DNA of 64,000 nucleotides, taken from Trypanosoma brucei (Eukaryota). The stretch spans positions 2,016,001-2,080,000 of the forward strand of contig CP000071.1 of NCBI GenBank assembly GCA_000002445.1, given 5' to 3'. Numbering within the stretch: the first letter of the stretch is position 1; each line of letters opens with the position of its first letter. Positions 28,001 to 44,274 of this stretch are shown in pieces. Position numbers and translations under genes: made by a program. The notes beneath the pieces were generated by a model. The model was not told the DNA's origin. It made no database searches and saw only the letters and a list, made by a program, of their open reading frames with translations.

Positions 28001-31000
28001 GGTACTGATTTGCTTTGCGCTACTATGTTTGACCGGCAGGTGCCACACCTTATACAGTTGTGCCTCGAGTTCCATGTGCAGCGTGAGTACTTTGGTCAGA
28101 GTCGGATCACGAACCTTGACGTCTGTACGAGGGATGGATGCTGGTATTGCTATTATGAATATGAACCACTCGAAGAGCATGACCCGCTGCTGGCTGGTGT
28201 ACTTCACTGCCACGCCCCGGATGCAACGGCCGGTAGTGCTGAGAACCAGGGTGCCGGTGTTGTTCTGATGCTTCCCGACGTGAAGGTGCTTCAGAAAACG
28301 TGGGCGGAGACGCTCAACTTAAACTTGCAGCAGACGTCTCGGTGCCCTTCTGTGTGCACAGTCTTTGTTTCGGTCTGCAGGCAATTTACGGAAGAGGAGG
28401 TCGCGCGTTTGTGCGAGGGTGCGCTGAGGGACAATGCGGAAGCACTCAGGCAGCATGTGAAGCTGGAGCGCGTCACATTTATTGTGCATGGTGTTGACCG
28501 TGGCCCCCGTACATTCACTTATCGTAGTGCCCATGACTGGCGCGAGGACACACTGATCCGAAACGTGGCACCGCTCTCCGCACGCCGGTTAGAGCTGCAA
28601 CGTCTTGAAAACTATGATGTGGTTATGTACCCGACACCCTTCAAGGAGATTCACGTGTTCCACGCCACACCCAAAAAGAAAAGTGTTTCATTTCTTGAGC
28701 ACCGCATCTTTGCGCGCGCATGCGTGACTCCCCGCGACTTGGGTGTTGCACCATGGACAGTGATGAATGAAATTGACGCAGGGCATATGTTTGACATATG
28801 CCTCGATGCACTTGATGTCATACGTAGTGACAGCACTATCAAGTACCCGAAGCACAATCATCTTTTCATAAAAATGGTTGAACTAACTTTTGACCTGAGC
28901 AGCTTGAGAAAGGTGTTGTCGCAGGTGGGAAAATCGTACAAGTGGCGGACGATGCATCTTGGTGTGGCCGAAGTGGAGCTGTCCTTCCTTCTTCCCGTTT
29001 CCAGTGGATACGTTCCGTTCCGTGTCATCGTGTCATCTTCTTCGGGGGCCAGCGCGGCTATGCGCATCTACCACGAGTGGAATGAGGGTGGAAAGCCATG
29101 CCTACGTCGAGCGCAGAACTCTGAGGACATTCTCATGAACTCTCTTTACACGTCGTCTGACAGCGTGCAGGAACAGGCAGCTGACGCGCAAAAGGTAGAG
29201 CCCCCTTCAGGGTGCCCTGCCGGCGCCGTCGGGGGTACTTTAACTCGTGCCCTGGCAAAACTAGAAGCGCTGCGGAGCCTGCTTCCTTCACGGGGTGATG
29301 AAGGAGACGCGATTGATGACGGTGAAGAGTGCATTCCATTACAACCGTACCCATTGTTGAATGCAAAGCAGCTTAAACGGCTACAAGCCTGGATGATCCA
29401 CACGGTGTACGTGCACGATTGGCCAGAACTTCTTCAGTATGCTTTGCGTGAAGAATGGAAGCAGCATGCACGTGGCCGCAGATTTCCGCTCTCGCGTATT
29501 CCCCCTTCTGTTCTTAAGGCCACAGAACTCTATCTCGATCCAGCGGACAAGAAGACCCTTCTTGAAGAAAAACCACAGGGTCACGTTCCATGTGGAGTCA
29601 TCGTGTGGTTGGTTGACATAAACCCGCCTTCATATTATGACAGTGAATCTAACATTGCGGGAAGCCGTCGGTTTGTGATGGTTGCCAATGACATTACTTT
29701 TCAGTCGGGTTCCTTTGCTGTGCCAGAGGACGATGTCTTCTCCGCGGCCTCTGTTTTAGCCCGGCAGTTGCGCATCCCGTTTGTGTATATTAGTGCAAAC
29801 AGTGGTGCGCGTATCGGCCTAAGCGCCGAGGTGAAGAAAAGGTTCCGTGTTGCCTTTAACGATGCGGAGGAAGCGGAGTATTTATACCTCGTGCAATCTG
29901 ATTACGATGAACTGGTGAGCCGTGGCGTGCGGCTTGCGGTGGAGAAGTTGGAACCACGACAAGTGGAAGGTGACGAGGGGGGCGAAGTGAGGTATGTCAT
30001 ACGTGGTGTCGTTGGTGGGACAGAGGAGTACTTGGGTGTCGAAAACCTTCGTGGGTCGGGGCTCATTGCTGGCCACATGTCAAAGAACTACAGCAATGTA
30101 CCGACGATCAGCATTGTGACCGGCAGAAGTGTTGGAATTGGCGCGTACCTCAACCGTATCGGACGTCGAGTTATTCAGACCGGTGATGCCCCCCTCATAT
30201 TGACAGGCGCGGCTGCACTCAACAGACTTCTCGGAAAGGAGGTGTACAGTGACAACAGTCAACTTGGCGGGCGGCAAGTGATGGTTCCTAACGGTGTAAC
30301 ACACTGGTATGCGAAGAACAACCGCCTGGCAGCTGAGACACTCCTGCGCTGGCTCGATTATGTCCCACCCGTCGTACATCCACTGCGTTGTTCTCCACGT
30401 ATCCTTGCGCTGCGACAGCCAGATCCTATTGACCGAGACGTGACTTATGAACCCAGTGGTGTGGAGTCTTACGACCCACGGGGGTTGGTCCGAGGTGTGG
30501 GTGACAAATTGGGGCTGTTCGATCGCGATTCCTGGGTTGAGTCACTGGAAGGTTGGGCCAAGACCGTTGTTACGGGCCGAGCAACACTTGGTGGTATTCC
30601 ATGCGGTATTGTTCTCGTCGAAACGCGGCCAACGCGCAAATGCAAACCAGCAGACCCCGCGGACCCAACGTCGTCAGAGGCCTTTGTCGCACAGGCAGGG
30701 CAGGTTTGGTTCCCGGATTCAGCACGAAAGACGGCGGACGCGCTGGACGACTTCCACCGGGAGCGGCTGCCATGTTTCATCTTCGCGAACTGGCGAGGTT
30801 TTTCAGGTGGCATGCGGGACATGTTTGAAGAGGTGCTAAAGTTTGGCGCCTCCATCGTTGACAACCTCCGCGTGTACAACTGCCCGGTATTTATTTACAT
30901 CCCACCGCGCGGTGAGCTACGCGGTGGAGCTTGGGTTGTTGTCGATCCATCCATCAACCACTGTGGTGCAGTGGAGATGTACTGTGATGGTAGTGCCCGT

Positions 31001-31645
31001 GGCGGGGTACTCGAAGCTGCAGGTATTGCAGAGATCAAGTTCCGTGAGGCTGACGTACGGGAGCTGATCCGACGAAACGAACCGCGGTTGAGGTCATTAA
31101 GCCCTGACCACCGCCATGCGGAAGAGAATCGGCTGCTACCGCGTTACAACGACGTGGCGCTTCGATTTGCGGACCTTCATGACACACATGTCCGCATGGA
31201 AGCGACTGGCGTCGTGCGTGGGGTCATTCCCTGGAAGGACAGTCGACGTCGCTTCTACGAAAAGCTCCAGAGGAAACTGAAGGAATTGTCACTTGCGGCG
31301 ACGCTGGTGGAGCGTCGGATGGCAGGTGACCTCGCGGACGGTGTACGGTACCTCGAGCAAGCCTTCGCACAAAAGCACCCAGGAGTTTTGTGGGGAAGTG
31401 ATGATGCCCTGCAGTTGCAGTGGCTGATAGAGTATGAAAGCGAGCTCAACGTTTCCACACACAACATTGTGTCACCCACTTCAGCATCCGCAGAAATACT
31501 GGAAGCGCTCCGGCGTCATGTGCCCTTACATGGAGAACAAAACGAAGCAGGTGAAGGGTTGGAAGGGTGTTTTGAGGAGCTTTTCAAAGACGAAAGGATG
31601 CGGCGTGCGGCCATGCAGGCGCTGGAACGTACAACCGCGAAGTAA
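25100..31645 (+). CDS. ACC: acetyl-CoA carboxylase (multidomain, 2,181 aa)
   Basis: N-terminal biotin carboxylase/ATP-grasp region ('GFPVMIKASEGGGGKGIR', 'EHPVSE'). Biotinyl-lysine motif 'EVEVMKMILPL' at nt about 27178-27198. Large C-terminal carboxyltransferase domain ('GGRQVMVPNGVTHW', 'ANWRGFSGG'). The size matches eukaryotic ACC. Confidence 0.95.
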   Translation: MSLSSPVTTMRPQLHGMKELCRFLGGKRPIERLLIANNGLAAVKGIDSVRSWLYVHTGNTEAVEFTVMATPEDLHANAEFISLSDRHVAVPGGPNRNNYANVDIIMQTAVQNSCNAIYPGWGHASENPALPRECVKTGERVIFLGPSAKAMFALGDKIASTIVAQSNGVPTVPWSGDEILLPPGVFEVDPLVYEKAYISTAEECEELCGRLGFPVMIKASEGGGGKGIRRCLRKEDVRDMFFAVAEEVKGCHIFVMRMLENVRHLEVQLLADDYGDCIAVHTRDCSVQRRHQKIIEEGPVFGVDASIINDMEAAAVRLAKAVKYRGLGTVEYMYDKSTQKFFFLELNPRIQVEHPVSELVSGVNLPAALLCVGMGVPLHRIPEVRTFFGEQPYDTSPIDFTRRRCLAAKGHTIAVRVTAEDTDEGFRPTSGRVEEIAFKNSKECWGYFSVGAGGEIHQFADSQFGHIFSSAETREEARRGMVMALRNLVIRGEIHTSVSYVLGLLERPEFCNCDVSTDWLDRLISARILQSAQHNQQDVYIALTAACTLRMLSKRDENHGRYVSFLSAGHVPTTEFLSNYESESYVNRSTNFNVTMGLTSPTEISISLNGSVISVPFRKLKSGALQLRVGGKTAIAYAEKEPSSLRISIGGKETTFTGDIDPTKLFAAVPGRFVRYLVCDGGHVEEGTIVAEVEVMKMILPLRASTVGALHHKVAPGSTIALGTLVAEITPDDPSKVARPREATEPWPPELLDAADKEDQMERLDSLARARRGAEALWNMLRGYHFSGIPLDRRLKSAFSDLGALSLSSVSLTALNLPFISERVVGSDHATPNYKLRVVLETLISEYVEVERSFVRCNRQEAIHQVRETTGDTRKVFEIDFAHNQPSHHGVIKAVLNTLENNMVLLKSLMPSLSTLVNLRSTGDGTLQMQARYLLRQCSLPSFVERKIAFTRELEEGSMMDLIQGSYGTDLLCATMFDRQVPHLIQLCLEFHVQREYFGQSRITNLDVCTRDGCWYCYYEYEPLEEHDPLLAGVLHCHAPDATAGSAENQGAGVVLMLPDVKVLQKTWAETLNLNLQQTSRCPSVCTVFVSVCRQFTEEEVARLCEGALRDNAEALRQHVKLERVTFIVHGVDRGPRTFTYRSAHDWREDTLIRNVAPLSARRLELQRLENYDVVMYPTPFKEIHVFHATPKKKSVSFLEHRIFARACVTPRDLGVAPWTVMNEIDAGHMFDICLDALDVIRSDSTIKYPKHNHLFIKMVELTFDLSSLRKVLSQVGKSYKWRTMHLGVAEVELSFLLPVSSGYVPFRVIVSSSSGASAAMRIYHEWNEGGKPCLRRAQNSEDILMNSLYTSSDSVQEQAADAQKVEPPSGCPAGAVGGTLTRALAKLEALRSLLPSRGDEGDAIDDGEECIPLQPYPLLNAKQLKRLQAWMIHTVYVHDWPELLQYALREEWKQHARGRRFPLSRIPPSVLKATELYLDPADKKTLLEEKPQGHVPCGVIVWLVDINPPSYYDSESNIAGSRRFVMVANDITFQSGSFAVPEDDVFSAASVLARQLRIPFVYISANSGARIGLSAEVKKRFRVAFNDAEEAEYLYLVQSDYDELVSRGVRLAVEKLEPRQVEGDEGGEVRYVIRGVVGGTEEYLGVENLRGSGLIAGHMSKNYSNVPTISIVTGRSVGIGAYLNRIGRRVIQTGDAPLILTGAAALNRLLGKEVYSDNSQLGGRQVMVPNGVTHWYAKNNRLAAETLLRWLDYVPPVVHPLRCSPRILALRQPDPIDRDVTYEPSGVESYDPRGLVRGVGDKLGLFDRDSWVESLEGWAKTVVTGRATLGGIPCGIVLVETRPTRKCKPADPADPTSSEAFVAQAGQVWFPDSARKTADALDDFHRERLPCFIFANWRGFSGGMRDMFEEVLKFGASIVDNLRVYNCPVFIYIPPRGELRGGAWVVVDPSINHCGAVEMYCDGSARGGVLEAAGIAEIKFREADVRELIRRNEPRLRSLSPDHRHAEENRLLPRYNDVALRFADLHDTHVRMEATGVVRGVIPWKDSRRRFYEKLQRKLKELSLAATLVERRMAGDLADGVRYLEQAFAQKHPGVLWGSDDALQLQWLIEYESELNVSTHNIVSPTSASAEILEALRRHVPLHGEQNEAGEGLEGCFEELFKDERMRRAAMQALERTTAK

Positions 31646-32671
31646 CATGGCGTGGGATGCGGCGCCACTGGAGGCAAGGAATGAGAATTACAAATAACTG
31701 ATTGAAGGGGCCGTATGCGGCACATAACGGGGCTTCCACAATATAAGTGAATGGGAATTCTTTTTTTTTGTTTGTTTGTTTGCGCCTTAATGATTGTTGC
31801 AGGGCGTATAATGGGAGTATAAGTGACAGCTAAGTGAACGTGTGTGATATTAGTGGAACTCTACCCATATTCTACCTCTCTATCGCCACCAAAAGAAGCA
31901 AAAAAGGAAATTGATTTTGTGGTTCCATTTTTGTTTCGCTCCATTCCGCTTTCCCCGTGCCAAACATAAGAATCGGGGAATGAATCATTTTCAAGACGAC
32001 TGAAGAAAAGAGAATTGTTTATCAAAATTAAAGTAAAAGAGATAAAGGGGAAAGGTAATAATATTTTGTTCTCTTGTTGTTTTTCATGCTCTTTTTTGTT
32101 CTCTTCTTGTTGTTTTTTTTTAAAGATGCTGTCTTTCCACAGTCTTGCCATCACACACATGTATGCGTACGTGTAGGTCCAAATTCATTTGTTCTCTTAT
32201 TTTTTGCATGTGCGGACGTTGCATGCAGGGGGGAACCCGTATGCGGGTCCGCAACATTTTGTTGTTATTATACTTTATCTCCGATCACCACCATGGATCA
32301 TCAGTGTGGCTGAGTGGGCTGCAATACTTCTCTTCTGTTTTCTCTCTACCTTTTCTTTCTTCGCTACATGTGACTTTCCCACAGTCTCCCAGGGGAAAAG
32401 AGGGAGAACAACAACAAAAAAAAATAAAACAAACAAACAAACAAACAAAGGCACAAGGAACGGATCCTCCTCTTTTTTGTTTTGGTTTTTGAGGAAAAGA
32501 TCTATTTTAAACATATAGCCGAGACGCTAAAGTGGGTGGTACAACCGCAAACATATAAGGGGGCAGAGAGGCATTATTTTTTTCTTTTCATTTTGCTTCG
32601 TTTCGTTAAAAGGTACAATAGGAAGAGGATTATTTGATCAGGAACCACACACACAAGAAGGTGAATAACAC

Positions 32672-33994
32672 ATGACCGCGCACAAACGTGCAACAAACGG
32701 GGATAATGGACTACCCGTGCCGCCTGTGGACGATGACTCTGAAATTGAAGATCCTCTTGAAGGCATCCTTGGCTCTCGCACCGGTTGCAGGTATGTCAAA
32801 AAAAAGCTGTTGGGTCAAGGAAGTTTTGGAAGCGTGTGGCGGGTGGAGGAAACGGCGACAGGGTCGATCTTTGCAGCAAAGGTGATGGATACAAACAATA
32901 TGAGCGCGAAGGACCGTGGTTTTGTTATAAATGAGGTTAAATGCCTTTCACGCTGCAACAACGCAAATATTATACGCCACCATGCCTCATTCAACCGCGG
33001 TGGGATGCTGCTCATCATCGCGGAGTATGCCGACGGTGGCGACCTCTGCAGGCAAATCAAGGTGCGGCAGCACGCAGGACGGCACTTCAAGGAGCATGAA
33101 GTGTTATACATATTTCTGCAACTATGTCTTGCATTGGATCACATCCACGGCAATAACATGATGCACCGCGACCTTAAGTCTGCCAACGTACTGCTTACCA
33201 CAATGGGCCTTGTGAAGTTGGGTGACTTTGGCTTCAGTCGTCAATACGAGGACTCGCTGTCAAATCCTGTTGGCACTACTTTCTGTGGGACGCCATATTA
33301 TTTGAGCCCCGAACTCTGGCGCCGCGCGCCGTACAGCAAAAAGAGTGAAATGTGGGCTCTTGGTGTGGTGTTGTATGAAGTGATGATGTTGAAGCGACCT
33401 TTTGGTGGACGTAATATGGATGAGCTCATCAACAATATTGTCCATGCCCGCCGCGCCCCGCTTCCAAATATGTACTCGGATGAACTGCGTCGAGTGTGTG
33501 ATCAGTTGCTTTCTCTCGATCCAGCTAAACGGCCGTCACTGCGACAGCTCTTCCAACAGCCTTTCATTCGCCGTGGCTTAGACTCACTGCGACGAAGTGT
33601 GGAGACGCACAAAAAAATTCCACCAAGAACCTTCAGCGAGATTGCACGAAACATTGATGAGGTGTTGAGACCTGGTCTCCCGGAGTATCGGGGGAGTAGT
33701 GTAACGCCTCATCGTGGGATGTTGCAACGTCACACCGCGGATCGTGGTTGGAAGGATTGCGAGCTTTCACTAAACGCTGGCGGTGTTTCAATGCGAGATG
33801 TAGAAACTGGTGGCGTTGAAACGGTGAATCTTGAAACCCTCACATCCGTCTGTCCCGTAGACGCGGCAACCGCTCAGGAGAAATATGTTTTCGCTCTTAA
33901 GAATCAAACAGGAAAGGCGTATTGGTTTAAGGACCTTGCAGAGGATTCATACGATTATTGGATTTCCGCCCTTCAGAAAGCCATATCGCATTGA
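32672..33994 (+). CDS. NIMA-related (NEK) Ser/Thr protein kinase with a C-terminal PH-like domain (440 aa)
   Basis: Kinase subdomains present: 'LGQGSFGSVWRV', 'AAKVMD', 'HRDLKSANVLL', 'DFGFSRQ', 'GTPYYLSPELW'. The C-terminal 100 aa ('VFALKNQTGKAYWFKDLAEDSYDYWISALQKAI') fit a PH-domain fold. Confidence 0.8.
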   Translation: MTAHKRATNGDNGLPVPPVDDDSEIEDPLEGILGSRTGCRYVKKKLLGQGSFGSVWRVEETATGSIFAAKVMDTNNMSAKDRGFVINEVKCLSRCNNANIIRHHASFNRGGMLLIIAEYADGGDLCRQIKVRQHAGRHFKEHEVLYIFLQLCLALDHIHGNNMMHRDLKSANVLLTTMGLVKLGDFGFSRQYEDSLSNPVGTTFCGTPYYLSPELWRRAPYSKKSEMWALGVVLYEVMMLKRPFGGRNMDELINNIVHARRAPLPNMYSDELRRVCDQLLSLDPAKRPSLRQLFQQPFIRRGLDSLRRSVETHKKIPPRTFSEIARNIDEVLRPGLPEYRGSSVTPHRGMLQRHTADRGWKDCELSLNAGGVSMRDVETGGVETVNLETLTSVCPVDAATAQEKYVFALKNQTGKAYWFKDLAEDSYDYWISALQKAISH

Positions 33995-33999
33995 GTGGT

Positions 34000-35962
34000 T
34001 CCCTCTTTTTTGTTTTTTTTTTTCTTGTCCTTCTTCTTCCTTTTTTTTCCCCCATCTTTTTTCCCTCTTTCATTTCTTCTTTCAGTTTTGTGGCATTTGG
34101 TGTGTAATGATTGGAACGTTGGAACACAAGACGAGTTGAAATGACAAGAAAATATGTCTTTAGTTTTAGCCCCATTTCCCCTCAGTAAAAAAAAAAAAGT
34201 CTATCAAAAGCAGCGTTACCGGTGGATGAGAGGTGCTTTCTTTTTCTTTTTTTTCTTTTTTTCTTTTCTTTCTTTTTTTTTCTTTTTTTTTTTTTACTGG
34301 AAACACAAGGGTAATAATTAGCAAAAAAAAAAAAGATGACAAATAATATTGGAAACATTTGTTTTAAATGTATACATGACCAGAATTTTCTTCTGTTTTT
34401 TTTTCTTTTTACCGCGTGCCCTTATGCATGGAAATGGGAAATTACCAATTACACTTACTGCACACATGTTAATCGGATAAAGGAAGGGTTGAGGAAAAGA
34501 AACAAATAAATAGCACTCGAGCGAAAGAGAAAAAGTAAAATAAAATAAAATAAAATAGAAAGAAAATAAATAAATAAAAGAGATGCAAGAATTAAAATGA
34601 AAACGATAATAACACTTACAGTTCCGATGAAACGGAGGGAATGTATAATAAATAGCGAAAACAAAAGATGAGGGGACAAAAAGTAATGTTACAGATTACA
34701 AATCAAACATTACTTGAAGGATGAGGAAAATTTGTTGTTGTTGTTTTTGTTGTTTCGCATTGCTGGAAGAAGAGGGGAAAAAAAGCAATGGGAAATTAGA
34801 AAGTAGGAATGAAATGAAATGAAATGAAATGAAATAAAAGCAAAAGGGAAACCGTATACGTGTTTAACCGGTGTATTTCAAGGGATTTAACAAGGAGCAA
34901 AATTACATCCATAAAAGAAAACGGACAAACAAATCATAAGGAATAGGGGAAAAGAAAAAAGGAAGAAGAAAAAAGAAAAAGGAAGCAGCATTTAACGGAT
35001 TAATGCTTACATTCATATTTATATATATTTATTTCTTTTTTTTTTTTGATGTTGGGTTGGGTGACTGTATTTCCTTAATTTTCTTCTTTTTTTTTTTGTT
35101 TGTTTGGACAAAACCCATCAGGTTATATGCTCAGTACTGCTACCGTCATTACACTGGTGGTTTCTTTTGTTTCTTGTCTCATTTTCACTCAACCCCCGAT
35201 GTTCCATATTTCACCTTTTGTTGTTTTTGCTGCTGTTTTGTTTTTTTTTTCCTTCTTTTTTTTAAAAAAATTTTATCTTACCTTATCTTATCTTATCTTT
35301 TTTTCTCTTTATTTGACTTGTCTTATTTATGCTTATTTGCTGCGACTGTTTCTTGTTTGTTTTGTTTTGCATTTTTTTTTTCACCTCTTTATTCTTCTTT
35401 AGCAGGCGTTGTTTATTATTTCATTTGGTCTCATTCCTAAGCGTATAACTTGTGCATGTGTGTAGAGGCGTGGCGGACAATCTTTTTCTCTTTTTTTTTT
35501 CTTATTATTCTGTGTTGTATTTTCACTGTTGTTTTATATCTTCTTGTTTATTAATGAATTTGACTAGATGGGGGAAATAAACCGAAACTTATGAATGAAT
35601 AAATGGAGTGAATTTCCCAACAACGACGAAAGCGATCATGTAAATATATTTGTGCACTTGTATGTAAAAAAATAAATAAATAAATAATAATAATAATAGT
35701 ATATATAAAAGGGAGGAGAAAAGGAAACAATTGTTGTATTTATATTGCTTCCTCAACATGAGAAGGAGGTGTTGACTGAAAAAAATTCCAAAAATAAAAA
35801 TAAAAAGATAAAATAAAATAGAAGAGGGAAGTGTGCAATGGTAAAGGGTGTAAAGGGAAAATAGCGATAGAAAGTCGTAGTGTTCGGTGCCACCGTAATT
35901 CTCCTTTTGCTTATTTGCTTTTTAATTTTTACTTTTTACTTTTTTGACTTGTTTTGTTTTGT

Positions 35963-36011
<49 letters not shown>

Positions 36012-37350
36012 TTTGGTCTAGCGTATACGTACATATGTTATATGTATCGCCATATGGAGAAGAAGAAAAAAAGGGGGGAAAAGGAACATTCCGTATAACT
36101 CAATTTCTGCTCGTACAGGCATTTGTGTTTTCTTTTTTTATTGTTTTTATTGTTTTGTTGTTTGTGTTTTGCGTGTGTCCGAATTCGGCTCATCGTACCT
36201 TTGGTTACTGTGGGCTTTTGTTGTGTATTCTTCGCGTTGCGGATTCCTTTTTTTTTTGTTTTGTTTTGTTTCTTGCTGCGGTTTCGTCTTTGGCTGACTT
36301 GTGACCTCCCCCCCCCCCCCACCCCCTCACCATTTGTTTCTTGGATGCTTTTAATCCTTCATTTTTTTCTTTCTTTTTTTTTTTCCTTTCATTCCCCATG
36401 ATGGATGTGATGTGATATCTTTCCATCACTTACACTCTCCCAACCAAATCGTCACCGCGCTCATGAAAGAACTGCTTCGTGTTCTCCTCAGAGTGTTGTT
36501 GTTTTTTATTTTTGTTGTTTTTTTTTGTTTTTGCTGTTGCTTAATCCTTAGTGTTTTATCTTTACATAAGTTTTTTTTGTGTGTGTGTATATGCGTGGAT
36601 TTCAAAGAAAATGGAAAACAAATACATGATTGAAGAGATGCTAAGACGATGTGTCTTCCGCCCTTTCATTTCACTTCATGTTTGTTTGCTGTGTTGTTGT
36701 TGTTGTTGTTGTTTTCTTCTTCGTCCTCGCCCGTCTGTTGTTTGTTTGTTTTTTTTTCTTTTGGTTGTTGTTGTTGTTATACGTCTCTCTTTCTTCCCAC
36801 CGGTACACTTGAAATGAATGGAATAGTTCCGGTGTGCTCAGGCATGAGTGAGAAAATAAACAAAAAGCGGATGAATGCCACGGATGTGCACTCTCATTCG
36901 CTTTTTAAAGGTGCGCATTCCCAATGTTGCGGGTTTGTGTGTGCTCTTCCGGTCCCCCGTAATTCTCCTTTATTTCAACATCTTTCTTTCTCTTCAACAC
37001 TTGTTTGTCTTTTGTGCGTGTGTGTTTGGTTTTGGTTTTGGTTTTGGTTTTTTTTTGTGCCTCAACGTGTTTCTGCGACGCGCTCCGGCACAATAGACGA
37101 GGAAGAAAGGAAGACACTCAAGCAGAAAAACAGCACGGTGGAACTACGAGAGGAGTTTCCAGCTCTTGTCCCGAAAATTTGCTACATTTCGTTGAAGTAA
37201 GGAGACACAAAAGAAAAAAAAGAAGGAAGTAGAGCAAAGCAAACGGCAGCGAGAACGTCCCACTGATTCTTCTTTGCTTCGCGACTGTACTGGAAAACTG
37301 TTGAAAAGAAGAACATAACATCACAGTGAACTGCATACGCTGTCCTTTCC
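34000..37350. repeat. 3.4 kb low-complexity, microsatellite-dense region with no credible ORF
   Basis: Elements seen:
- T and A homopolymer runs
- (TAAAA)4 at about 34536-34556
- (GAAAT)5 at 34811-34835
- TnAn junction at about 35258
- (TTATC)n at about 35276-35300
- (TTG)~16 at 35964-36010
- C13 at 36308-36320
- (GTT)~8 at 36693-36716
- (TTTGG)5 at about 37024-37050
All ORFs in this region translate to low-complexity F, L, V, C or K runs on either strand. Confidence 0.85.
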
Positions 37351-37362
37351 TCCCTTGCAAAG
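37341..37362 (+). promoter_or_regulatory. polypyrimidine tract plus AG, putative SL-addition site upstream of squalene synthase
   Basis: 'tgtcctttcctcccttgcaaag' lies 75 nt upstream of the ATG at 37438. Confidence 0.4.
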
Positions 37363-37437
37363 TTGTGGAAGTCGCGAGTAACATTTTTTCTTTCCGTCTT
37401 TATATACGCATTGAGTTTCACGACACCAACCGTCGCG

Positions 37438-38808
37438 ATGGATTACGTTAGCGAATTGTACGCCATGATCCGCGTACGGTGGCAGATGCGGAGGATGGCG
37501 GGGGAATTGCAGGCGGACGACGAGGACCTCCGTTTCTGTTATGATGTGCTGCGTGACGTGTCGCGCTCCTTCGCTCTCGTCATTATGCAACTGAAAGCTG
37601 CTCTTCGTGATGCTGTATGTGTTTTTTATCTCGTTCTGCGAGCCCTTGACACGGTGGAGGATGACATGCAACTGCCGCTTGAGTTCAAACTGCGGGAACT
37701 TCCGCTTTTTCATACGCGGCTGCACGATCACACGTGGCGGTTGGATGGAGTCGGTGAGGGTCGAGAACGGGAGTTGCTTCAGAAATTCCCTCATGTTTCA
37801 GCCGCCTTCTCCCGCCTGGACCCGTCATTTCAAAGTGTGATTGAAGACATATGCAGACGGATGGCTGATGGCATGTGCGACTTCCTCCAGCGCACCGACA
37901 CCTGCAAAGCAAATAACAAAGAAATCAGTGAGGATAATTGTCATGATGGCAAAAGTGAGAAGAGTGCTGTGGAGACTCGGGAGGACTTTGATTTGTACTG
38001 TCACTACGTTGCCGGTCTGGTGGGACTTGGACTCACGCAACTTTTCGTTCGAAGTGGTCTTGAGAAGGCGGCACTTGAGGAAAACATGACGCGCGCCAAC
38101 CACATGGGTCTATTGCTGCAGAAAACGAATATTATTCGCGACTTCTACGAGGACATTTGTGAGAGCCCGCCTCGCGTGTTTTGGCCGCGCGAAATATGGG
38201 GACAGTACACCGACGACCTCCATGCATTTAAGGGAATAACGCGACCGACCAATGGATCTAATGACACCGCTTGCGGTGAAGGTAGAAAGTATAGTGACGA
38301 AGAAAAGGAGATCATTAAGTCCAAGGCGGTGGATTGCCTTAACGCGATGGTGGCAGACGCCCTGGTGCATTTACCACCAGTTATCGAATACCTCGCAGAG
38401 CTGCGTGATCCCACTGTTTTTGCATTTTGCGCAATCCCGCAGGTGATGGCTGTGGCGACATTAGCACTGGTCTTTGACAACCCTGATGTGTTCCATAGCA
38501 GGGTGAAGCTCACGCGTGGCGCCACGTGTAAAATCATCCACAACGCCACCGAGTTGTCTGCTGCGCTGAAGCTCGTGAGGACATATGCTCAAAAGTTACT
38601 TGCAAGCGCGCATGCCGGCGTTGCCAGCCATGAGGCGGTAGCGCAGTCCCTGCAGGTTGCCATTAAGACAATGGATGAGCAGGTGTTGCGACACAATACC
38701 AAGCTGGTGGAAGGACCGACACGGCGAGTGCTGGCGCAGTATTCCGCATTGGGAGGCGGGCTTCTGCTCAAAGTTGTCGACGGTGTCTTCGGTTATTTGG
38801 GCAGGTGA
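37438..38808 (+). CDS. SQS: squalene synthase (farnesyl-diphosphate farnesyltransferase), 456 aa
   Basis: The ORF track starts at a TTG at 37363. The ATG at 37438 gives 'MDYVSELYAMIR...'. Squalene/phytoene synthase signatures present: 'FYLVLRALDTVEDD' (first Asp-rich motif), 'YCHYVAGLVGLGL', 'NIIRDFYED'. A C-terminal hydrophobic tail is present. Confidence 0.85.
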   Translation: MDYVSELYAMIRVRWQMRRMAGELQADDEDLRFCYDVLRDVSRSFALVIMQLKAALRDAVCVFYLVLRALDTVEDDMQLPLEFKLRELPLFHTRLHDHTWRLDGVGEGRERELLQKFPHVSAAFSRLDPSFQSVIEDICRRMADGMCDFLQRTDTCKANNKEISEDNCHDGKSEKSAVETREDFDLYCHYVAGLVGLGLTQLFVRSGLEKAALEENMTRANHMGLLLQKTNIIRDFYEDICESPPRVFWPREIWGQYTDDLHAFKGITRPTNGSNDTACGEGRKYSDEEKEIIKSKAVDCLNAMVADALVHLPPVIEYLAELRDPTVFAFCAIPQVMAVATLALVFDNPDVFHSRVKLTRGATCKIIHNATELSAALKLVRTYAQKLLASAHAGVASHEAVAQSLQVAIKTMDEQVLRHNTKLVEGPTRRVLAQYSALGGGLLLKVVDGVFGYLGR

Positions 38809-40482
38809 AAAAGTCCTCGTGTAAATACACTTACGTGACCAAATATATTTGTTTCACTATTTATTTGGTGTCGATTTTTCCAATGTTGTATATATATATA
38901 TTTATATATATATAGCATGTGTTCGTTCGGTCCCCACCCCATCTCCTTGCTTTTTTTATATTATATTCTATTTTTTTTATTTTTTTCTCTTTTAATCGTG
39001 TTTTGAAACCTCCCACTGCTGGAGAATTGTGCGTTTCTCGACCAATTCGGGGGAAGAAACGAAATAAAGAAGAATTATATAAATATATATATATATATAT
39101 AAAGTGAGATTTTGTGGGTATAACTTGGATATGGATTGTTCAAAAGAATCTGATAGACGGAAGACACTCGCAAAATGACCTCAGTGAAAGTGAACGTGCC
39201 TTACTGTATGTTAGTAAAGAGGGAAACGTAAAGTAGAATTTGAAGTCGAGGAAGAAAAAAGTGAAGAGGCAATGAGTGTGCTAAAAAGAGAGGAAAAGAG
39301 AAGGAGAGTTTAGTTGAGGTAATGATTTTTGTACGGTCGTTAACTTTTATATATTTTACCTTTTTTATTATTATTATTATTTTTTTTTTGTTTACTCTCC
39401 TGGCGCCTCTGTATGTGCTTACTTACCTATTACCCTTTTTGTGTTTACATTCTCCGATTTTCCTAGCGGAGAAAAAAGTGCTTCAACCAAAGGAAGAGAG
39501 AAAGCACGGCACCAAAGCAAAAAGGAAGAAATGAGAGGGAAAAAAATGTAGTAATTGTTTGAAGTTAAGAAAAAAGAAAGTTTCAAGGTGCGTTGCGGTG
39601 CCTCAACTTTACCGGGTGGTTGAAAGGGAATAGCGCCTTTTTCTTTTTTTTTTTTGTTTGTGGCTCTCTTTTTCCAGACCATTTGTTAGAAACGGAAACA
39701 GTAGGTACAGTCCTGCTATTTTTTTTTTCATTGTGTTGATGTGGTTTTCCTTATTTCATTCCACTAACTCCCAACACTCTCCATCCTGGTCCAAATGAGA
39801 AGAACAAGGTGTCGAAAGCATTTTTTTAAAAAAAAACTACTATCAAGCGAAACTATTGCAACTGTTTCTGTCCCACTTTATTAATCCAATCCCATTTTAT
39901 GTTTTAGTATACGGTTAGGATCAATATCATGTGGTGTCGTGATGGGGAATCTGTGCGTTCTCATACCCGTAAAACTGAGATGGTGACGGATAGAACAGAA
40001 AATTTGTATTAAGAACCGATACGCAAGCTTTTTTGTACTCTCCACTGCGGCTAAAAAGAGACGCCAGAACAGTCTCGTCGGAACTTGGGATACGAACTTT
40101 CCTTCTGATCGTGTATTATTACCCATGTTGTTCTTGTTCTTATCCTTCTCGCTGCCGTCGCGTAAGCGTTGCGTTTGAAGGGACGGAATTTTCTTGTCAT
40201 TTGGAATCATGCGATTTAATGGCGGAGGTTGTTGGTGACTTCATATGTATTCGCTATGAATGACTGCATGTGGTTTATGCATCTCCATGTCACTCACATA
40301 GTGCCTGAGTAGATGCTCCATCACCGCATTTCGCCGGCACGAAATGACGGCAATAGCGTAATGTGGTAATCGCCGTTGCACCTTTACCTCTGGAATGTAA
40401 CCCGTTCCCCTAACACATCCGTCTTTGTTGCTGTCCCTCATGTTTTTTTTCTCCACGATGTCCTTTAGATTAGGGCAGCTTT

Positions 40483-41459: not shown

Positions 41460-42650
41460 ATGAGGACAAGGCGTCGTAGGTCACAGGTTTATGCTTTCAC
41501 ACTTGCAGTCCTCATTGCAATATCATGTTTGGTAGTGTGTTGTGATCTCTTCTTTCTTAGCGTTATCCATTTACCGTTAGAAGAGGAAAAGGCGTCTGCA
41601 CCTATCAACGTGGACGAGTGCCTGAGGCTCACTGCCCCGAGCACCGTCAGCATTTGGCAAGAGCGTGAGTTTCTAGTGATTGTTGGCATACCCTCTGTTG
41701 ATAGGGACGAGTGGCAGAAGCGACGGAACCTTCAACGGCGGACTTGTTGGCAATACGCTGGCGTGGCTACCTTAGAAAACAACTTTACAGGTGAGCTTCT
41801 CCCGCTGTACCTCCTCGCACCACATCAATTAAACGGGTACGAAATCTCAGAATCGCTGCGGGATGAGGCTTCACGAACAAATGACGTGGTTATGCTTCCA
41901 ACCAATGATGTGTGCTCGTTTTCACGAAGGAAAATTGGTGAAGGTGGAAGCTGGGGAGTTGAGTCAGAGCTTGTGATGAGCCGCAAGACCTTCCTTTGGC
42001 TTCAGTTTGCCGTTACCGCCTTTCCAAATGTAAGTTATATTGTGAAAGGTGACGACGATGTGTTTGTCCGTGTACCGCAGTATCTCGCGGACCTCCGTGT
42101 GATGCCTCGTAATGGATTATATATGGGCCGTGTCTATGGTGCCACATTCTTCTGGAGGTCGGGTGGGATACCATTCGCTGCAGGATACTTCACTACCTTT
42201 TCCAGGGATGTTGCAGAAGCTGTTGCCTCCTACAGGCCTCTTGAACGACTTTTGAAGGCACCCTACTCCATATGGCGTATGAGGCAGTACCTTTCCATGA
42301 GTGTGTTGCATGAGGATGTAATGACCGCTTTAGTGCTGCAAGATAAGATCAGGTATAAGGGCCTGATTATTGTTGACGCCGCACCTTGTCACTTTCATAA
42401 CGCAGGCAAGAAAGGTATCAGAGCATCCTTAATTGATGAGTACGTAGTAGTCCACCATATAAAGGAAAATGACTACGAGGTCCTTATGAACCATTTTGCT
42501 GATATTGCGGTGCAGCCTAAGCCATCAAAAGTCATGTGGAGAAGTGAAAACTATGCAGTCATGCAGTGTTTTGCGACTCTAAGACTAAGGAGAAGTGCGT
42601 TGCTCGCTCTTTTATCTGCGTTAGGTACTACTTTCCGTCGGCACCCTTAG
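41460..42650 (+). CDS. UDP-sugar-dependent glycosyltransferase, beta-1,3-galactosyltransferase-like (GT31-like), type II membrane topology; paralog 1
   Basis: The ORF track starts at a GTG at 41199. In-frame ATGs are at 41355 and 41460. I chose 41460, which gives a short Arg-rich tail followed by the transmembrane stretch 'VYAFTLAVLIAISCLVVCC', mirroring paralog 2. Catalytic region contains 'FLVIVGIPSVDRDEWQKRRNLQRRTCW' and the DxD-type motif 'IVKGDDDVFV'. This is the family of trypanosomatid Golgi glycosyltransferases. The start-codon choice is uncertain. Confidence 0.7.
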   Translation: MRTRRRRSQVYAFTLAVLIAISCLVVCCDLFFLSVIHLPLEEEKASAPINVDECLRLTAPSTVSIWQEREFLVIVGIPSVDRDEWQKRRNLQRRTCWQYAGVATLENNFTGELLPLYLLAPHQLNGYEISESLRDEASRTNDVVMLPTNDVCSFSRRKIGEGGSWGVESELVMSRKTFLWLQFAVTAFPNVSYIVKGDDDVFVRVPQYLADLRVMPRNGLYMGRVYGATFFWRSGGIPFAAGYFTTFSRDVAEAVASYRPLERLLKAPYSIWRMRQYLSMSVLHEDVMTALVLQDKIRYKGLIIVDAAPCHFHNAGKKGIRASLIDEYVVVHHIKENDYEVLMNHFADIAVQPKPSKVMWRSENYAVMQCFATLRLRRSALLALLSALGTTFRRHP

Positions 42651-43143: not shown

Positions 43144-44274
43144 ATGACACAAAGGAAAGTGTACCCGCCTTACTCGTGGAGGAAACCGCGCGCTTCCGTC
43201 TTGGTGCTGACGACCACCTTTACAATGGCCCTCATCATTATAATGTGGGACATTTACCACATTTCGGAGGTGCATTCGAACAGCAGTTATGATCTCTTAG
43301 GCACGTTTGAAAATGACTATTACTTGACGCTCACTCCCCCGAGCACCGTCAGCATTTGGCAAGAGCGTGAGTTTCTAGTGATTGTTGGCATACCCTCTGT
43401 TGATAGGGACGAGTGGCAGAAGCGACGGAACCTTCAACGGCGGACTTGTTGGCAATACGCTGGCGTGGCTACCTTAGAAAACAACTTTACAGGTGAGCTT
43501 CTCCCGCTGTACCTCCTCGCACCACATCAATTAAACGGGTACGAAATCTCAGAATCGCTGCGGGATGAGGCTTCACGAACAAATGACGTGGTTATGCTTC
43601 CAACCAATGATGTGTGTTCTCTCGCACGAAGGAAAATTGGTGAAGGTGGAAGCTGGGGAGTTGAGTCAGAGCTTGTGATGAGCCGCAAGACCTTCCTTTG
43701 GCTTCAGTTTGCCGTTACCGCCTTTCCAAATGTAAGTTATATTGTGAAAGGTGACGACGATGTGTTTGTCCGTGTACCGCAGTATCTCGCGGACCTCCGT
43801 GTGATGCCTCGTAATGGATTATATATGGGCCGTGTCTATGGTGCCACATTCTTCTGGAGGTCGGGTGGGATACCATTCGCTGCAGGATACTTCACTACCT
43901 TTTCCAGAGATGTTGCAGAAGCTGTTGCCTCCTACAGGCCTCTTGAACGACTTTTGAAGGCACCCTACTCCATATGGCGTATGAGGCAGTACCTTTCCAT
44001 GAGTGTGTTGCATGAGGATGTAATGAGTGCTTTAGTGCTGCAAGATAAGATCAGGTATAAGGGCCTGATCATTGCCAACGCAGCAGGGTGTCACTTTCAC
44101 AACAAAGCAAAAGAAGACATCAGGGAGGCAGTGAGCAATAGATCTGTTGTAGTCCACCATATAAGGGAAGAAGACTACGAGGTTCTGATGGATCATTTTT
44201 CTAACATTTCGGAACGACCTCAGCCATACGGCGTCAGGTGGCTACGGAATGACCGCGCTATGGTTCTGTGCTAA
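43144..44274 (+). CDS. UDP-sugar-dependent glycosyltransferase, beta-1,3-galactosyltransferase-like; paralog 2 (376 aa)
   Basis: The ORF track starts at a TTG at 43015. The ATG at 43144 gives 'MTQRKVYPPYSWRKPRASVLVLTTTFTMALIIIMW', a cytoplasmic tail plus signal anchor. About 750 bp of the catalytic core are near-identical to paralog 1 at the nucleotide level. Confidence 0.8.
   Translation: MTQRKVYPPYSWRKPRASVLVLTTTFTMALIIIMWDIYHISEVHSNSSYDLLGTFENDYYLTLTPPSTVSIWQEREFLVIVGIPSVDRDEWQKRRNLQRRTCWQYAGVATLENNFTGELLPLYLLAPHQLNGYEISESLRDEASRTNDVVMLPTNDVCSLARRKIGEGGSWGVESELVMSRKTFLWLQFAVTAFPNVSYIVKGDDDVFVRVPQYLADLRVMPRNGLYMGRVYGATFFWRSGGIPFAAGYFTTFSRDVAEAVASYRPLERLLKAPYSIWRMRQYLSMSVLHEDVMSALVLQDKIRYKGLIIANAAGCHFHNKAKEDIREAVSNRSVVVHHIREEDYEVLMDHFSNISERPQPYGVRWLRNDRAMVLC

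What the first reader, a model, noticed from the sequence alone, without database searches (positions are those of the whole stretch)
34000..37350. 3.4 kb gene-free, microsatellite-saturated block between the NEK kinase and squalene synthase
Other intergenic spacers in this transcription unit are 0.3-1.4 kb. This one is 3.4 kb and is a patchwork of many different simple repeats:
- (TTG)~16
- (GTT)8
- (GAAAT)5
- (TTTGG)5
- (TAAAA)4
- (TTATC)n
- a C13 run
- long T and A runs
- a TnAn junction

No ORF translates to anything but low-complexity peptide. A further 1 kb of similar material (31650-32670, with (TTTG)n and (AAAC)n) lies on the other side of the NEK kinase.

Possibilities:
- an unusually long regulatory 3'UTR or 5'UTR; U-rich 3'UTRs drive stage-regulated expression in trypanosomes
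- a fragile or recombinogenic spacer
- a host site for small non-coding RNAs that I cannot resolve by eye

The C13 tract and the (GTT)16 tract are each unusual on their own in this genome context.
Basis: seen in the sequence. Interest (0 to 1): 0.5.

Follow-up and report, generated by a model that had tools for sequence, protein, structure and literature searches.

The report
Long kinase 3'UTR in Trypanosoma brucei
The 3.4 kb "empty", repeat-filled block is the already annotated 2.8 kb 3' untranslated region of a Trypanosoma brucei protein kinase mRNA (NEK12.1), followed by the splicing signal and 5' leader of the squalene synthase gene; it is long but ordinary for a kinase gene in this parasite.

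Summary
The spacer at 33995-37437 (3,443 bp) is the longest of 23 in the window (median 585 bp) and the most AT-rich. It is about 8-fold richer in simple repeats than shuffled sequence. It holds no credible ORF, tRNA, Rfam family or dispersed repeat.

The window is T. brucei chromosome 8 (window position + 2,016,000 = TREU927 coordinate). The flanking genes are NEK12.1 (Tb927.8.7110) and squalene synthase (SQS, Tb927.8.7120).

A published re-annotation informed by nanopore RNA reads (Trenaman 2024) sets the NEK12.1 3'UTR at window 33995-36834 (2,840 nt). The remainder is a polypyrimidine/splice-acceptor region and an ATG-free SQS 5'UTR.

A 2010 transcriptome study of procyclic (insect-stage) cells found no independent transcript there.

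The spacer downstream of this kinase is also long elsewhere: T. cruzi 3.0 kb, T. conorhini 2.4 kb, Leishmania 3.1 kb, and the chromosome-4 paralog RDK2 (5.0 kb spacer, 3.7 kb UTR). No sequence is conserved among them.

Long 3'UTRs rich in A-tracts and U-tracts are a described regulatory class in this parasite. They are typical of kinases, and RDK2 is a published exemplar.

Differences from a T. equiperdum strain are mostly microsatellite length changes.

Verdict: already known, low interest.

The parts
32672..33994 (+). NEK12.1 protein kinase coding sequence (Tb927.8.7110). It has a kinase domain and an A117 gatekeeper residue.
   Evidence: Pfam Pkinase, E = 1.4e-61. Residue 117 is A, against M in the chromosome-4 copy, which matches NEK12.1 in Jones 2014. 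Neighbouring acetyl-CoA carboxylase (ACC) and coordinate matches place it on chromosome 8.
33995..36834 (+). 3' untranslated region of the NEK12.1 mRNA, 2,840 nt. It makes up the bulk of the 'gene-free block'.
   Evidence: Trenaman 2024, Supplementary Data 1, row 963: UTR 2049995-2052834 on Tb927_08_v5.1, which is the window coordinate + 2,016,000. The annotation was informed by nanopore direct-RNA reads. No credible ORF, no Rfam family, no novel transcript.
34236..34295 (+). 60-nt uninterrupted polypyrimidine (U-rich) tract.
   Evidence: Tract map. It is 77-82% complementary to the purine tract at 34945-34987 (pairs I3-I5). The T. equiperdum contig ends here.
34480..34990 (+). First A/G-rich block. 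It includes (TAAAA)4, (GAAAT)5 and a 41-nt polypurine tract at 34945-34985.
   Evidence: Composition is 42-53% A. Tract map. Tandem Repeats Finder.
35560..35860 (+). Second A-rich block, with (TAAA)n, (AAT)5, and polypurine tracts at 35707-35727 and 35852-35861.
35964..36008 (+). (TTG)15 microsatellite, which varies in length between strains.
   Evidence: Perfect array. It is five units shorter in T. equiperdum OVI.
36308..36320 (+). C13 homopolymer.
   Evidence: The only C or G run of 9 or more in the 64 kb window. Identical in T. equiperdum.
36835..37096 (+). Region between the two mRNAs. It holds the composite polypyrimidine/GU-rich tract (about 36940-37058, including (TTTTGG)4.5) and the first downstream AG at 37095-37096. 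It is the inferred signal for trans-splicing of SQS and for the coupled polyadenylation of NEK12.1.
   Evidence: AG-free stretch at 36911-37094 (184 nt) ending 344 nt before the SQS ATG. Kolev 2010 places the SQS transcript start at 2053058 = window 37058. The reporter (MPRA) fragment overlapping this region is flagged 'has_DS_splice_site = yes'. The exact acceptor AG is inferred.
37097..37437 (+). 5' untranslated region of the squalene synthase mRNA (about 340-380 nt).
   Evidence: Kolev 2010 transcript 2053058-2055841. No ATG anywhere in 37097-37437. Public SQS-bearing contigs begin at 37104-37262.
37438..38808 (+). Squalene synthase coding sequence (Tb927.8.7120).
   Evidence: Pfam SQS_PSY, E = 5.6e-47. 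100% identical to the T. b. gambiense protein. Coordinates match Kolev Table S3.
35893..35907 (+). First copy of the 15-nt exact repeat CCGTAATTCTCCTTT. The second copy is at 36957-36971. Each copy lies just upstream of a T/G-rich tract.
   Evidence: Only two copies in the window; 0.10 expected. Both are present in T. equiperdum and absent from the other loci.

Best explanation
**What it is**

The block is not a separate element. It is the non-coding part of two adjacent mRNAs in a T. brucei polycistronic unit on chromosome 8:
1. Window 33995-36834 is the 2,840-nt 3'UTR of the NEK12.1 kinase mRNA (Tb927.8.7110).
2. About 36835-37096 is the processing region. It holds a long pyrimidine/GU-rich tract followed by the first AG.
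3. About 37097-37437 is the ATG-free 5'UTR of squalene synthase (SQS).

**How it works**

- *Processing (inferred, not shown for this site).* In trypanosomes the polypyrimidine tract upstream of a gene directs trans-splicing of that gene. The same event sets the poly(A) site of the gene upstream. Here the tract before SQS would define the NEK12.1 poly(A) site about 260 nt upstream.
- *Repeat composition (shown genome-wide by others, inferred for this UTR).* The simple-repeat texture is the usual building material of long trypanosome 3'UTRs: U-rich polypyrimidine tracts (7.4 per kb) and A-rich polypurine tracts (3.5 per kb). Such tracts tune translation and mRNA stability. UTRs dense in both are associated with higher translation in bloodstream forms.
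- *Internal tracts (inferred).* The UTR-internal pyrimidine tracts must be kept from acting as splice signals, plausibly by RNA-binding proteins such as DRBD18.
- *Microsatellites (shown by the strain comparison).* They change length by slippage.
For: **Identity and coordinates**
- Three independent anchors give window = chromosome 8 coordinate minus 2,016,000:
  - SQS coding sequence, 2053438-2054808;
  - acetyl-CoA carboxylase (ACC) poly(A) site, 2048198;
  - the annotated UTR starts, 2049995 and 2047646, which fall exactly one base after the NEK and ACC stop codons.
- The A117 gatekeeper residue identifies NEK12.1.

**UTR status**
- The 3'UTR is annotated at 2049995-2052834, from a re-annotation informed by nanopore direct-RNA reads.
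- No novel transcript lies between 2049995 and 2053437 in Kolev Table S7, although the table does list transcripts in two other spacers of this window.
- No Rfam family, tRNA or C/D-box-like candidate.
- All ORFs are low-complexity and have no family match.

**Processing signals**
- A 184-nt AG-free zone ends at the first AG, 344 nt before the SQS ATG.
- The 341 nt upstream of the SQS start contain no ATG.
- Kolev places the SQS transcript start at window 37058.

**How it compares genome-wide**
- Genome-wide the median 3'UTR is 388 nt and the mean 622 nt.
- Early estimates put about 6% of 3'UTRs above 2 kb. [quoted passage not shown]

**Relatives**
- The spacer after this kinase is the longest in the fetched locus in each of these:
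  - T. cruzi: 3,038 and 3,068 bp in two strains;
  - T. conorhini: 2,435 bp;
  - the T. brucei chromosome-4 paralog: 5,047 bp spacer, with an annotated UTR of 3,699 nt.
- In L. infantum it is 3,147 bp.
- The T. cruzi and chromosome-4 spacers are also rich in simple repeats and tracts.

**Regulation**
- NEK12.1 mRNA is 2-2.6 times higher in bloodstream forms.
- The paralog RDK2's UTR is a published exemplar of bloodstream up-translated UTRs dense in A- and U-tracts.
- A reporter (MPRA) fragment covering the last 1,112 nt of this UTR was weakly enriched in the positive-selection arm: log2 fold change 1.13, FDR 0.07.
- The UA(U)6 motif, which marks mRNAs for destruction in bloodstream forms, is absent. 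None of 26 U6+ runs is preceded by UA, against 10 of 38 elsewhere in the window (p = 0.004).

**Microsatellite variation**
- Most length differences from T. equiperdum OVI are changes in repeat unit number: (TTG) 5 units fewer, (TTTTG) 1 unit more, and T runs differing by 1-2.
Against: - The UTR boundary comes from someone else's manual annotation. I could not inspect reads, and the stated poly(A) position (36834) is not at an obvious A-run.
- Kolev's transcript start for SQS (37058) falls inside the T-tract, not after an AG. The exact acceptor is therefore uncertain.
- Tb927.8.7110 is missing from the Kolev poly(A) tables that are held as text. Several of those tables are truncated, so there is no second, independent poly(A) mapping.
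- Reporter support for this particular UTR is weak: read counts of 0-2, FDR 0.07, and the fragment also carries the SQS upstream region.
- No primary sequence is conserved with T. cruzi, T. congolense, T. conorhini, Leishmania or the chromosome-4 paralog beyond 54 nt after the stop codon. No specific regulatory element can therefore be pointed to.
- Predicted folding is only mildly more stable than shuffles: z = -1.4 (global shuffles) and -3.1 (local shuffles), with 14 shuffles each.
- The UTR contains five long AG-free pyrimidine-rich stretches that look like splice signals. Minor internal processing cannot be excluded.
Confidence: 0.88

Rival explanations
1. **Transcribed but functionally neutral filler.** The block is part of the NEK12.1 mRNA. 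Its length and repeat content reflect unconstrained microsatellite expansion and turnover, possibly in space left by ancient gene loss, not selection for regulation.
For: - No sequence conservation with any relative or with the paralog.
- Strain differences are slippage events.
- The reporter effect is only weak.
- Folding is barely different from shuffles.
- Leishmania has an extra NUDIX gene between NEK and SQS, and Bodo has a 920-aa ORF right after NEK. Gene content here has therefore changed during evolution.
Against: - A long spacer after this kinase persists in both T. brucei paralogs, T. cruzi, T. conorhini and Leishmania. It is the longest spacer in each Trypanosoma locus fetched, despite complete sequence turnover.
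- No relic of NUDIX, SQS, ACC or any other coding sequence is detectable in the spacers.
- UA(U)6 is depleted in both paralogous UTRs.
- Tract-rich long UTRs have measured effects genome-wide, including the paralog's.
Confidence: 0.25
2. **Host of independent non-coding RNAs.** Internal polypyrimidine tracts would drive trans-splicing and polyadenylation inside the block, giving lncRNAs or small RNAs with their own function.
For: - Five AG-free pyrimidine-rich stretches of 131-349 nt lie inside the UTR. Six of the eleven such stretches in the whole window are in this spacer.
- Depletion of DRBD18 is reported to release trans-spliced, polyadenylated RNAs made of downstream UTR sequence from other long UTRs.
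- A 15-nt motif upstream of the SQS tract is duplicated upstream of the (TTG)n tract.
Against: - No novel transcript is listed here in Kolev 2010 for procyclic cells, although two are listed in neighbouring spacers.
- The 2024 re-annotation from nanopore RNA reads treats 2.84 kb as one UTR.
- No Rfam family at E <= 1.
- No C/D-box-like candidate.
- The lncRNA catalogue of Guegan 2022 could not be checked, because no supplement is held.
Confidence: 0.07
3. **Fragile or recombinogenic DNA site.** The repeats would promote breakage, rearrangement or replication problems.
For: - Long pure pyrimidine (60 nt) and purine (41 nt) tracts and many microsatellites are present.
- The T. equiperdum short-read assembly breaks and has N-gaps inside the block.
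- Repeat unit numbers differ between strains.
Against: - Assembly breaks in low-complexity DNA are a technical effect of short reads.
- The flanking gene order ACC-NEK-SQS is conserved in T. cruzi, T. conorhini and T. theileri.
- Outside the repeats, the spacer is more than 99% identical between the two strains.
- No dispersed or transposon-like repeat is present.
Confidence: 0.03

Closest known systems
3'UTR of the paralog RDK2 / NEK12.2 (Tb927.4.5310, chromosome 4)
   Same: - It lies downstream of an 85%-identical kinase that arose from the chromosome 4/8 duplication.
- Its UTR is long (3,699 nt annotated) inside a 5,047-bp spacer with GC 32% and 18.6% simple repeats.
[quoted passage not shown]
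- It has almost no UA(U)6.
- Its mRNA is higher in bloodstream forms.
   Different: - Homology between the two loci stops 54 nt after the stop codon; nothing further is similar.
- The RDK2 UTR gave a strong positive reporter hit (log2 fold change 4.3), whereas the NEK12.1 fragment was marginal (log2 fold change 1.13, FDR 0.07).
- Only RDK2 depletion triggers differentiation.
Long trypanosome 3'UTRs rich in polypurine and polypyrimidine tracts, associated with higher translation in bloodstream forms (Trenaman et al. 2024); the RBP10 3'UTR (more than 7 kb) is the best dissected case
   Same: - The UTR is several kb long, low-complexity, and alternates A-rich and U-rich segments.
- It belongs to a regulatory protein (a kinase).
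- The transcript is bloodstream-enriched.
   Different: - No functional dissection exists for this UTR.
- Translation efficiency for NEK12.1 was not retrieved.
- My tract counts use a simple run definition, not the paper's FIMO motifs.
Ordinary T. brucei intergenic region (3'UTR, polypyrimidine tract, splice acceptor, 5'UTR)
   Same: The architecture and strand bias are the same, with U greater than A on the coding strand. An AG-free zone precedes the acceptor, and the poly(A) site lies a few hundred nt upstream of the next gene's splice signal.
   Different: It is about six times the median spacer length in this window and seven times the genome median 3'UTR length. Simple-repeat density is five times that of the other spacers.

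Membership tests
Trypanosome mRNA 3'UTR (part of a mature mRNA in a polycistronic unit) | Lies on the sense strand between a stop codon and a mapped poly(A) site. | tested here: met
   The published annotation 2049995-2052834 begins one base after the NEK stop codon at window 33994. All 24 genes of the window are on the + strand. I could not inspect the reads myself.
Trypanosome mRNA 3'UTR (part of a mature mRNA in a polycistronic unit) | Contains no protein-coding gene or structured RNA gene of its own. | tested here: met
   - Only low-complexity ORFs are present.
- No Pfam match for the two longest.
- Neither is recorded as a gene elsewhere.
- No tblastx conservation with five related spacers beyond low-complexity hits.
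- No Rfam family or tRNA.
Trypanosome mRNA 3'UTR (part of a mature mRNA in a polycistronic unit) | Is followed by a polypyrimidine tract and an AG acceptor that serve the downstream gene. | tested here: met
   A pyrimidine/GU-rich tract runs to 37058. The AG-free zone spans 36911-37094 and the first AG is at 37095-37096. The SQS transcript start is 37058 in Kolev 2010. The exact acceptor is inferred.
Regulatory long 3'UTR dense in polypurine and polypyrimidine tracts (Trenaman 2024 class) | [quoted passage not shown] | tested here: met
   There are 3.5 polypurine and 7.4 polypyrimidine tracts per kb. Most other spacers of the window have 0-2 polypurine and 1-5.7 polypyrimidine tracts per kb; the two adjacent spacers (ACC-NEK: 3.9 and 8.8 per kb; SQS-next gene: 6.6 and 3.6 per kb) have similar or higher densities. 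This uses my own run-based definition, not the paper's motif scan.
Regulatory long 3'UTR dense in polypurine and polypyrimidine tracts (Trenaman 2024 class) | The UTR changes reporter expression in the massively parallel reporter assay (MPRA). | tested here: inconclusive
   One fragment (window 35722-37448, overlapping the UTR by 1,112 nt) was enriched in the positive-selection arm only. Read counts were very low, with p = 0.038 and FDR = 0.07.
Regulatory long 3'UTR dense in polypurine and polypyrimidine tracts (Trenaman 2024 class) | Higher translation in bloodstream than in procyclic forms. | not tested
   Only mRNA abundance was retrieved: 2-fold and 2.1-2.6-fold higher in bloodstream forms.
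snoRNA or small-RNA host locus | Contains recognisable C/D or H/ACA snoRNAs or other curated RNA families. | tested here: not met
   No Rfam match at gathering score or at E <= 1. No RUGAUGA...CUGA candidate on either strand.
Independent lncRNA gene | Own spliced-leader acceptor and poly(A) site giving a discrete transcript. | tested here: not met
   Kolev 2010 Table S7 (complete as held) lists no novel transcript in 2049995-2053437. It does list Tb8.NT.105 and Tb8.NT.106 in other spacers of the window. Later lncRNA catalogues could not be checked.
Decayed gene or transposon remnant | Residual similarity to a coding sequence or a dispersed repeat. | tested here: not met
   - tblastn with the Leishmania NUDIX protein found nothing.
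- tblastn with SQS, ACC, NEK and the 209-aa protein against the chromosome-4 spacer found nothing.
- tblastx among the spacers found only low-complexity hits.
- Only low-complexity repeat families occur within the block.
- A genome-wide search for RIME/ingi-type elements was not possible with these tools.

The most novel reading that the evidence does not exclude
The five AG-free, pyrimidine-rich modules inside the NEK12.1 3'UTR could be latent processing sites. One of them carries a duplicated copy of the 15-nt motif found upstream of the genuine SQS splice signal. They might be used conditionally, for example in stumpy or procyclic forms or when DRBD18 is low. Their use would shorten the kinase mRNA and release trans-spliced non-coding RNAs. 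The 'repeat block' would then act as a developmental switch on a differentiation-related kinase pair.
Probability: 0.12. Interest if true: 0.45.

Novelty: already known. Interest (0 to 1): 0.12.

Why it matters
It matters little as a discovery. The region is already annotated as a 3'UTR in the T. brucei reference. The class it belongs to, long low-complexity kinase UTRs rich in A- and U-tracts, has been described genome-wide.

It is a clean worked example of a general point: in trypanosomes a large, repeat-saturated 'gene desert' inside a transcription unit is usually a regulatory UTR.

Two small points may be useful to specialists:
- A long spacer downstream of the NEK12 kinase is retained in both T. 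brucei paralogs, T. cruzi, T. conorhini and Leishmania, despite complete sequence turnover.
- Both paralogous UTRs avoid the UA(U)6 motif that marks mRNAs for destruction in bloodstream forms.

Tried and rejected
**Lost-gene relic.** Leishmania has a NUDIX hydrolase gene between NEK and SQS.
- tblastn with its protein found nothing in the T. brucei, T. cruzi, T. congolense or T. theileri loci.
- The chromosome-4 spacer holds no SQS, ACC or 209-aa relic.
- Rejected for lack of evidence.

**Conserved long spacer in Bodo saltans.** The called genes suggested 3.7 kb. An uncalled 920-aa ORF fills most of it, so Bodo was dropped as support.

**T. theileri.** The spacer is 3.7 kb, but 2,504 bases are N. 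Its length is not usable.

**Conserved sequence blocks.** blastn and tblastx among the spacers gave only low-complexity matches.

**Internal 1.1 kb tandem duplication.** The alternation of A-rich and T-rich segments suggested one. A k-mer offset analysis found only one significant 15-nt repeat, with 1,064 nt spacing. No large duplication is present.

**Highly structured RNA.** The minimum-free-energy z-scores were only -1.4 and -3.1, with 14 shuffles each.
- In the minimum-energy fold 83% of polypurine-tract bases are paired, 57% of them to polypyrimidine tracts.
- That is expected from composition alone.

**RNA-level evidence from public assemblies.**
- SQS-bearing Logan contigs begin at 37104-37262, but none carries a spliced leader. 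I could not tell whether they derive from RNA or DNA.
- Look-ups of the two longest spacer ORFs found nothing.

**Supplements that were not available.**
- Siegel 2010, Guegan 2022 and Bishola Tshitenge 2022 (RNA) have no text supplements held.
- The Kolev splice-site and poly(A)-site tables are truncated.


Full report
**1. Where we are**

The window is a unidirectional gene array. All 24 substantial ORFs are on the + strand.
- The ORF at 25100-31645 is an acetyl-CoA carboxylase (ACC).
- The ORF at 32672-33994 is a protein kinase.
- The ORF at 37438-38808 is a squalene/phytoene synthase family protein (SQS).

The kinase and SQS proteins are identical to those on Trypanosoma equiperdum contigs. 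SQS is also identical to the T. brucei gambiense protein.

Published coordinates fix the position exactly. Kolev et al. 2010 give:
- the Tb927.8.7120 coding sequence as 2053438-2054808 on chromosome 8;
- the Tb927.8.7100 poly(A) site as 2048198, with a 553-nt UTR.

Both fit window position + 2,016,000.

The kinase is Tb927.8.7110. It carries alanine at gatekeeper position 117, whereas the chromosome-4 copy has methionine. Jones et al. 2014 use that difference to distinguish NEK12.1 from NEK12.2/RDK2.

**2.

The spacer runs from 33995 to 37437 (3,443 bp).
- It is the longest of 23 spacers. The median is 585 bp and the next longest is 1,674 bp.
- It has the lowest GC (34.5%).
- It has the highest perfect simple-repeat coverage: 14.4%, against 2.7% of other non-coding DNA.
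- Simple-repeat content far exceeds shuffles: 497 bases observed, against 62 +/- 22 for global shuffles and 136 +/- 29 for shuffles that keep local composition.
- Excluding homopolymers, 292 bases are observed against 12 +/- 12.

The listed repeats are present. Small corrections apply:
- '(TTTGG)5' is (TTTTGG)4.5.
- The (TTG) array has 15 perfect units.
- Other spacers reach 1.67 kb.

The ORFs in the block are low-complexity, and the two longest have no Pfam match. Neither of those two is recorded as a gene in the indexed public assemblies.

**3. What it is**

Trenaman et al. 2024 re-annotated T. brucei 3'UTRs using nanopore direct-RNA reads. Their Supplementary Data 1 gives the Tb927.8.7110 3'UTR as 2049995-2052834. 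That is window 33995-36834, or 2,840 nt, starting one base after the stop codon.

Downstream of it:
- A pyrimidine/GU-rich tract runs to 37058.
- A 184-nt stretch without any AG (36911-37094) ends at the first AG, 37095-37096.
- Kolev's SQS transcript begins at 37058.
- The 341 nt from 37097 to the SQS ATG contain no ATG.

The block is therefore the NEK12.1 3'UTR, then the splice/polyadenylation signal region, then the SQS 5'UTR. The exact acceptor AG and the coupling of the NEK12.1 poly(A) site to this tract are inferred. The inference rests on the general trypanosome mechanism, as restated by Bishola Tshitenge and Clayton 2022.

**4. No independent genes or RNAs were found**

- Rfam gives nothing at gathering thresholds for the window, and nothing at E <= 1 for the block.
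- There are no tRNAs.
- There is no C/D-box-like candidate.
- Kolev's complete table of novel transcripts lists none in the block. It does list Tb8.NT.105 (window 16010-16465) and Tb8.NT.106 (window 39908-40341) in other spacers.
- Repeats within the block are only low-complexity families.
- One exception is an exact 15-mer, CCGTAATTCTCCTTT, at 35893 and 36957.

**5. Relatives**

| Locus | Spacer after the kinase | Notes |
|---|---|---|
| T. cruzi, two strains | 3,038 and 3,068 bp (NEK to SQS) | No called gene; only low-complexity ORFs |
| T. conorhini | 2,435 bp | Includes 303 N |
| L. infantum | 3,147 bp (NEK to NUDIX) | NUDIX gene is absent from Trypanosoma |
| T. brucei chromosome-4 paralog | 5,047 bp | 18.6% simple repeats; annotated RDK2 UTR 3,699 nt |

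- In every Trypanosoma locus fetched, this is the longest spacer.
- Nothing is conserved in sequence. Chromosome 8 and chromosome 4 homology stops 54 nt after the stop codon.
- blastn and tblastx among all the spacers give only low-complexity hits.
- There is no NUDIX, SQS or ACC relic.
- Two apparent supports had to be discarded:
  - The Bodo 'spacer' holds an uncalled 920-aa ORF.
  - The T. theileri spacer is mostly N.

**6. How it probably works**

- Genome-wide, the median 3'UTR is 388 nt and the mean 622 nt.
- About 6% were estimated to exceed 2 kb. [quoted passage not shown]
- Trenaman et al. report that A-rich polypurine tracts raise translation in a dose-dependent way.
- They also report that long UTRs rich in both A- and U-tracts tend to be up-translated in bloodstream forms. 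RDK2 is one of four exemplars.

In this window:
- The NEK12.1 UTR has 3.5 polypurine and 7.4 polypyrimidine tracts per kb, more than most other spacers. The T. cruzi spacer is similar.
- NEK12.1 mRNA is 2-2.6 times higher in bloodstream forms.
- Neither NEK12 UTR carries the UA(U)6 motif that RBP10 uses to destroy procyclic-specific mRNAs in bloodstream forms. The counts are 0 of 26 and 1 of 31 U-runs, against 10 of 38 elsewhere in the window (p = 0.004 and 0.0004).

Direct functional evidence for this UTR is thin. One reporter (MPRA) fragment was marginally enriched, with FDR 0.07.

The proposed masking of A-tracts by U-tracts is compatible with the data but not demonstrated:
- In the minimum-energy fold, 57% of polypurine-tract bases pair with polypyrimidine tracts.
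- Stability exceeds shuffles only mildly.

**7. Polymorphism**

Against T. equiperdum OVI the block is more than 99% identical. Most length differences are changes in repeat unit number: (TTG) 5 units fewer, (TTTTG) 1 unit more, and T runs differing by 1-2. The short-read contigs break or carry N-gaps in the tracts. This is ordinary microsatellite behaviour and is not evidence of a special fragile site.

**8. Verdict**

The feature is already annotated and belongs to a described class. Interest is low.

The residual novel possibility is conditional use of the five internal splice-signal-like modules. It is untested.

Noticed in passing
window 33995-36834; L015 11324-15022: Both NEK12 paralog 3'UTRs almost lack the RBP10 target motif UA(U)6, although they have 26 and 31 runs of six or more U. 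The counts are 0 and 1 copies, against 10 of 38 U-runs in the rest of the window's non-coding DNA (Fisher p = 0.004 and 0.0004).
   Followed up: partly
window 38969, 38978, 39378, 39717: Four of the ten UA(U)6 motifs in the window lie in the squalene synthase 3'UTR (38809-39765). This suggests SQS mRNA is an RBP10 target and so is lower in bloodstream forms. The gene is flagged 'down' in a spliced-leader trapping supplement.
   Followed up: no
window 35893-35907 and 36957-36971: The exact 15-nt repeat CCGTAATTCTCCTTT occurs only twice in the window (25 nt at 84% identity with flanks). Each copy lies just upstream of a T/G-rich tract, and the second copy precedes the genuine SQS splice signal. 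It may be a small duplication of the signal region.
   Followed up: partly
window 34989-35119, 35135-35400, 35881-36019, 36119-36467, 36646-36824: Five AG-free stretches of 131-349 nt lie inside the 3'UTR. Six of the eleven stretches of 118 nt or more in the whole window lie in this one spacer. They resemble the AG-exclusion zones upstream of real splice acceptors.
   Followed up: partly
L012 8295-9272 (Leishmania infantum): A 325-aa NUDIX hydrolase gene sits between the NEK and SQS orthologs in Leishmania. It is absent, with no detectable relic, from the T. brucei, T. cruzi, T. congolense and T. theileri loci; the T. conorhini locus has no called gene there but was not searched.
   Followed up: partly
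L016 11973-14735 (Bodo saltans): A 920-aa ORF directly downstream of the NEK ortholog was not called as a gene in the public record. It makes the apparent 3.7 kb spacer an artefact.
   Followed up: partly
L015 (T. b. gambiense chromosome 4) versus window 21960-45428: The chromosome-4 duplicon keeps PP4R3, NEK and the galactosyltransferase-like genes. It lacks ACC, SQS and the 209-aa gene. Homology with chromosome 8 around NEK runs from 8 nt before the ATG to 54 nt after the stop codon.
   Followed up: partly
window 10960-13138: A 123-nt unit is repeated 17.7 times at 99% identity inside the long ORF at 9469-14205. This corresponds to a 41-aa protein repeat.
   Followed up: no
window 41683-42131, 43385-43833, 44980-45428: Three tandem paralogous genes (galactosyltransferase-like by faint Pfam hits in relatives) share a conserved 450-nt core.
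   Followed up: no
P0121 (T. equiperdum annotation of the window's kinase): A public record names the chromosome-8 copy 'Repressor of differentiation kinase 2'. Its A117 gatekeeper marks it as NEK12.1, and RDK2 is the chromosome-4 copy (M117). This looks like a naming carry-over.
   Followed up: partly
L006 1-22 (Logan contig ERR7929162_3072): The first 22 nt (TCTGTTTTGATTTTATTTCTCT) match neither the window upstream of 37170 nor the spliced leader. The cause is unexplained; it may be a chimeric assembly or a variant allele.
   Followed up: no
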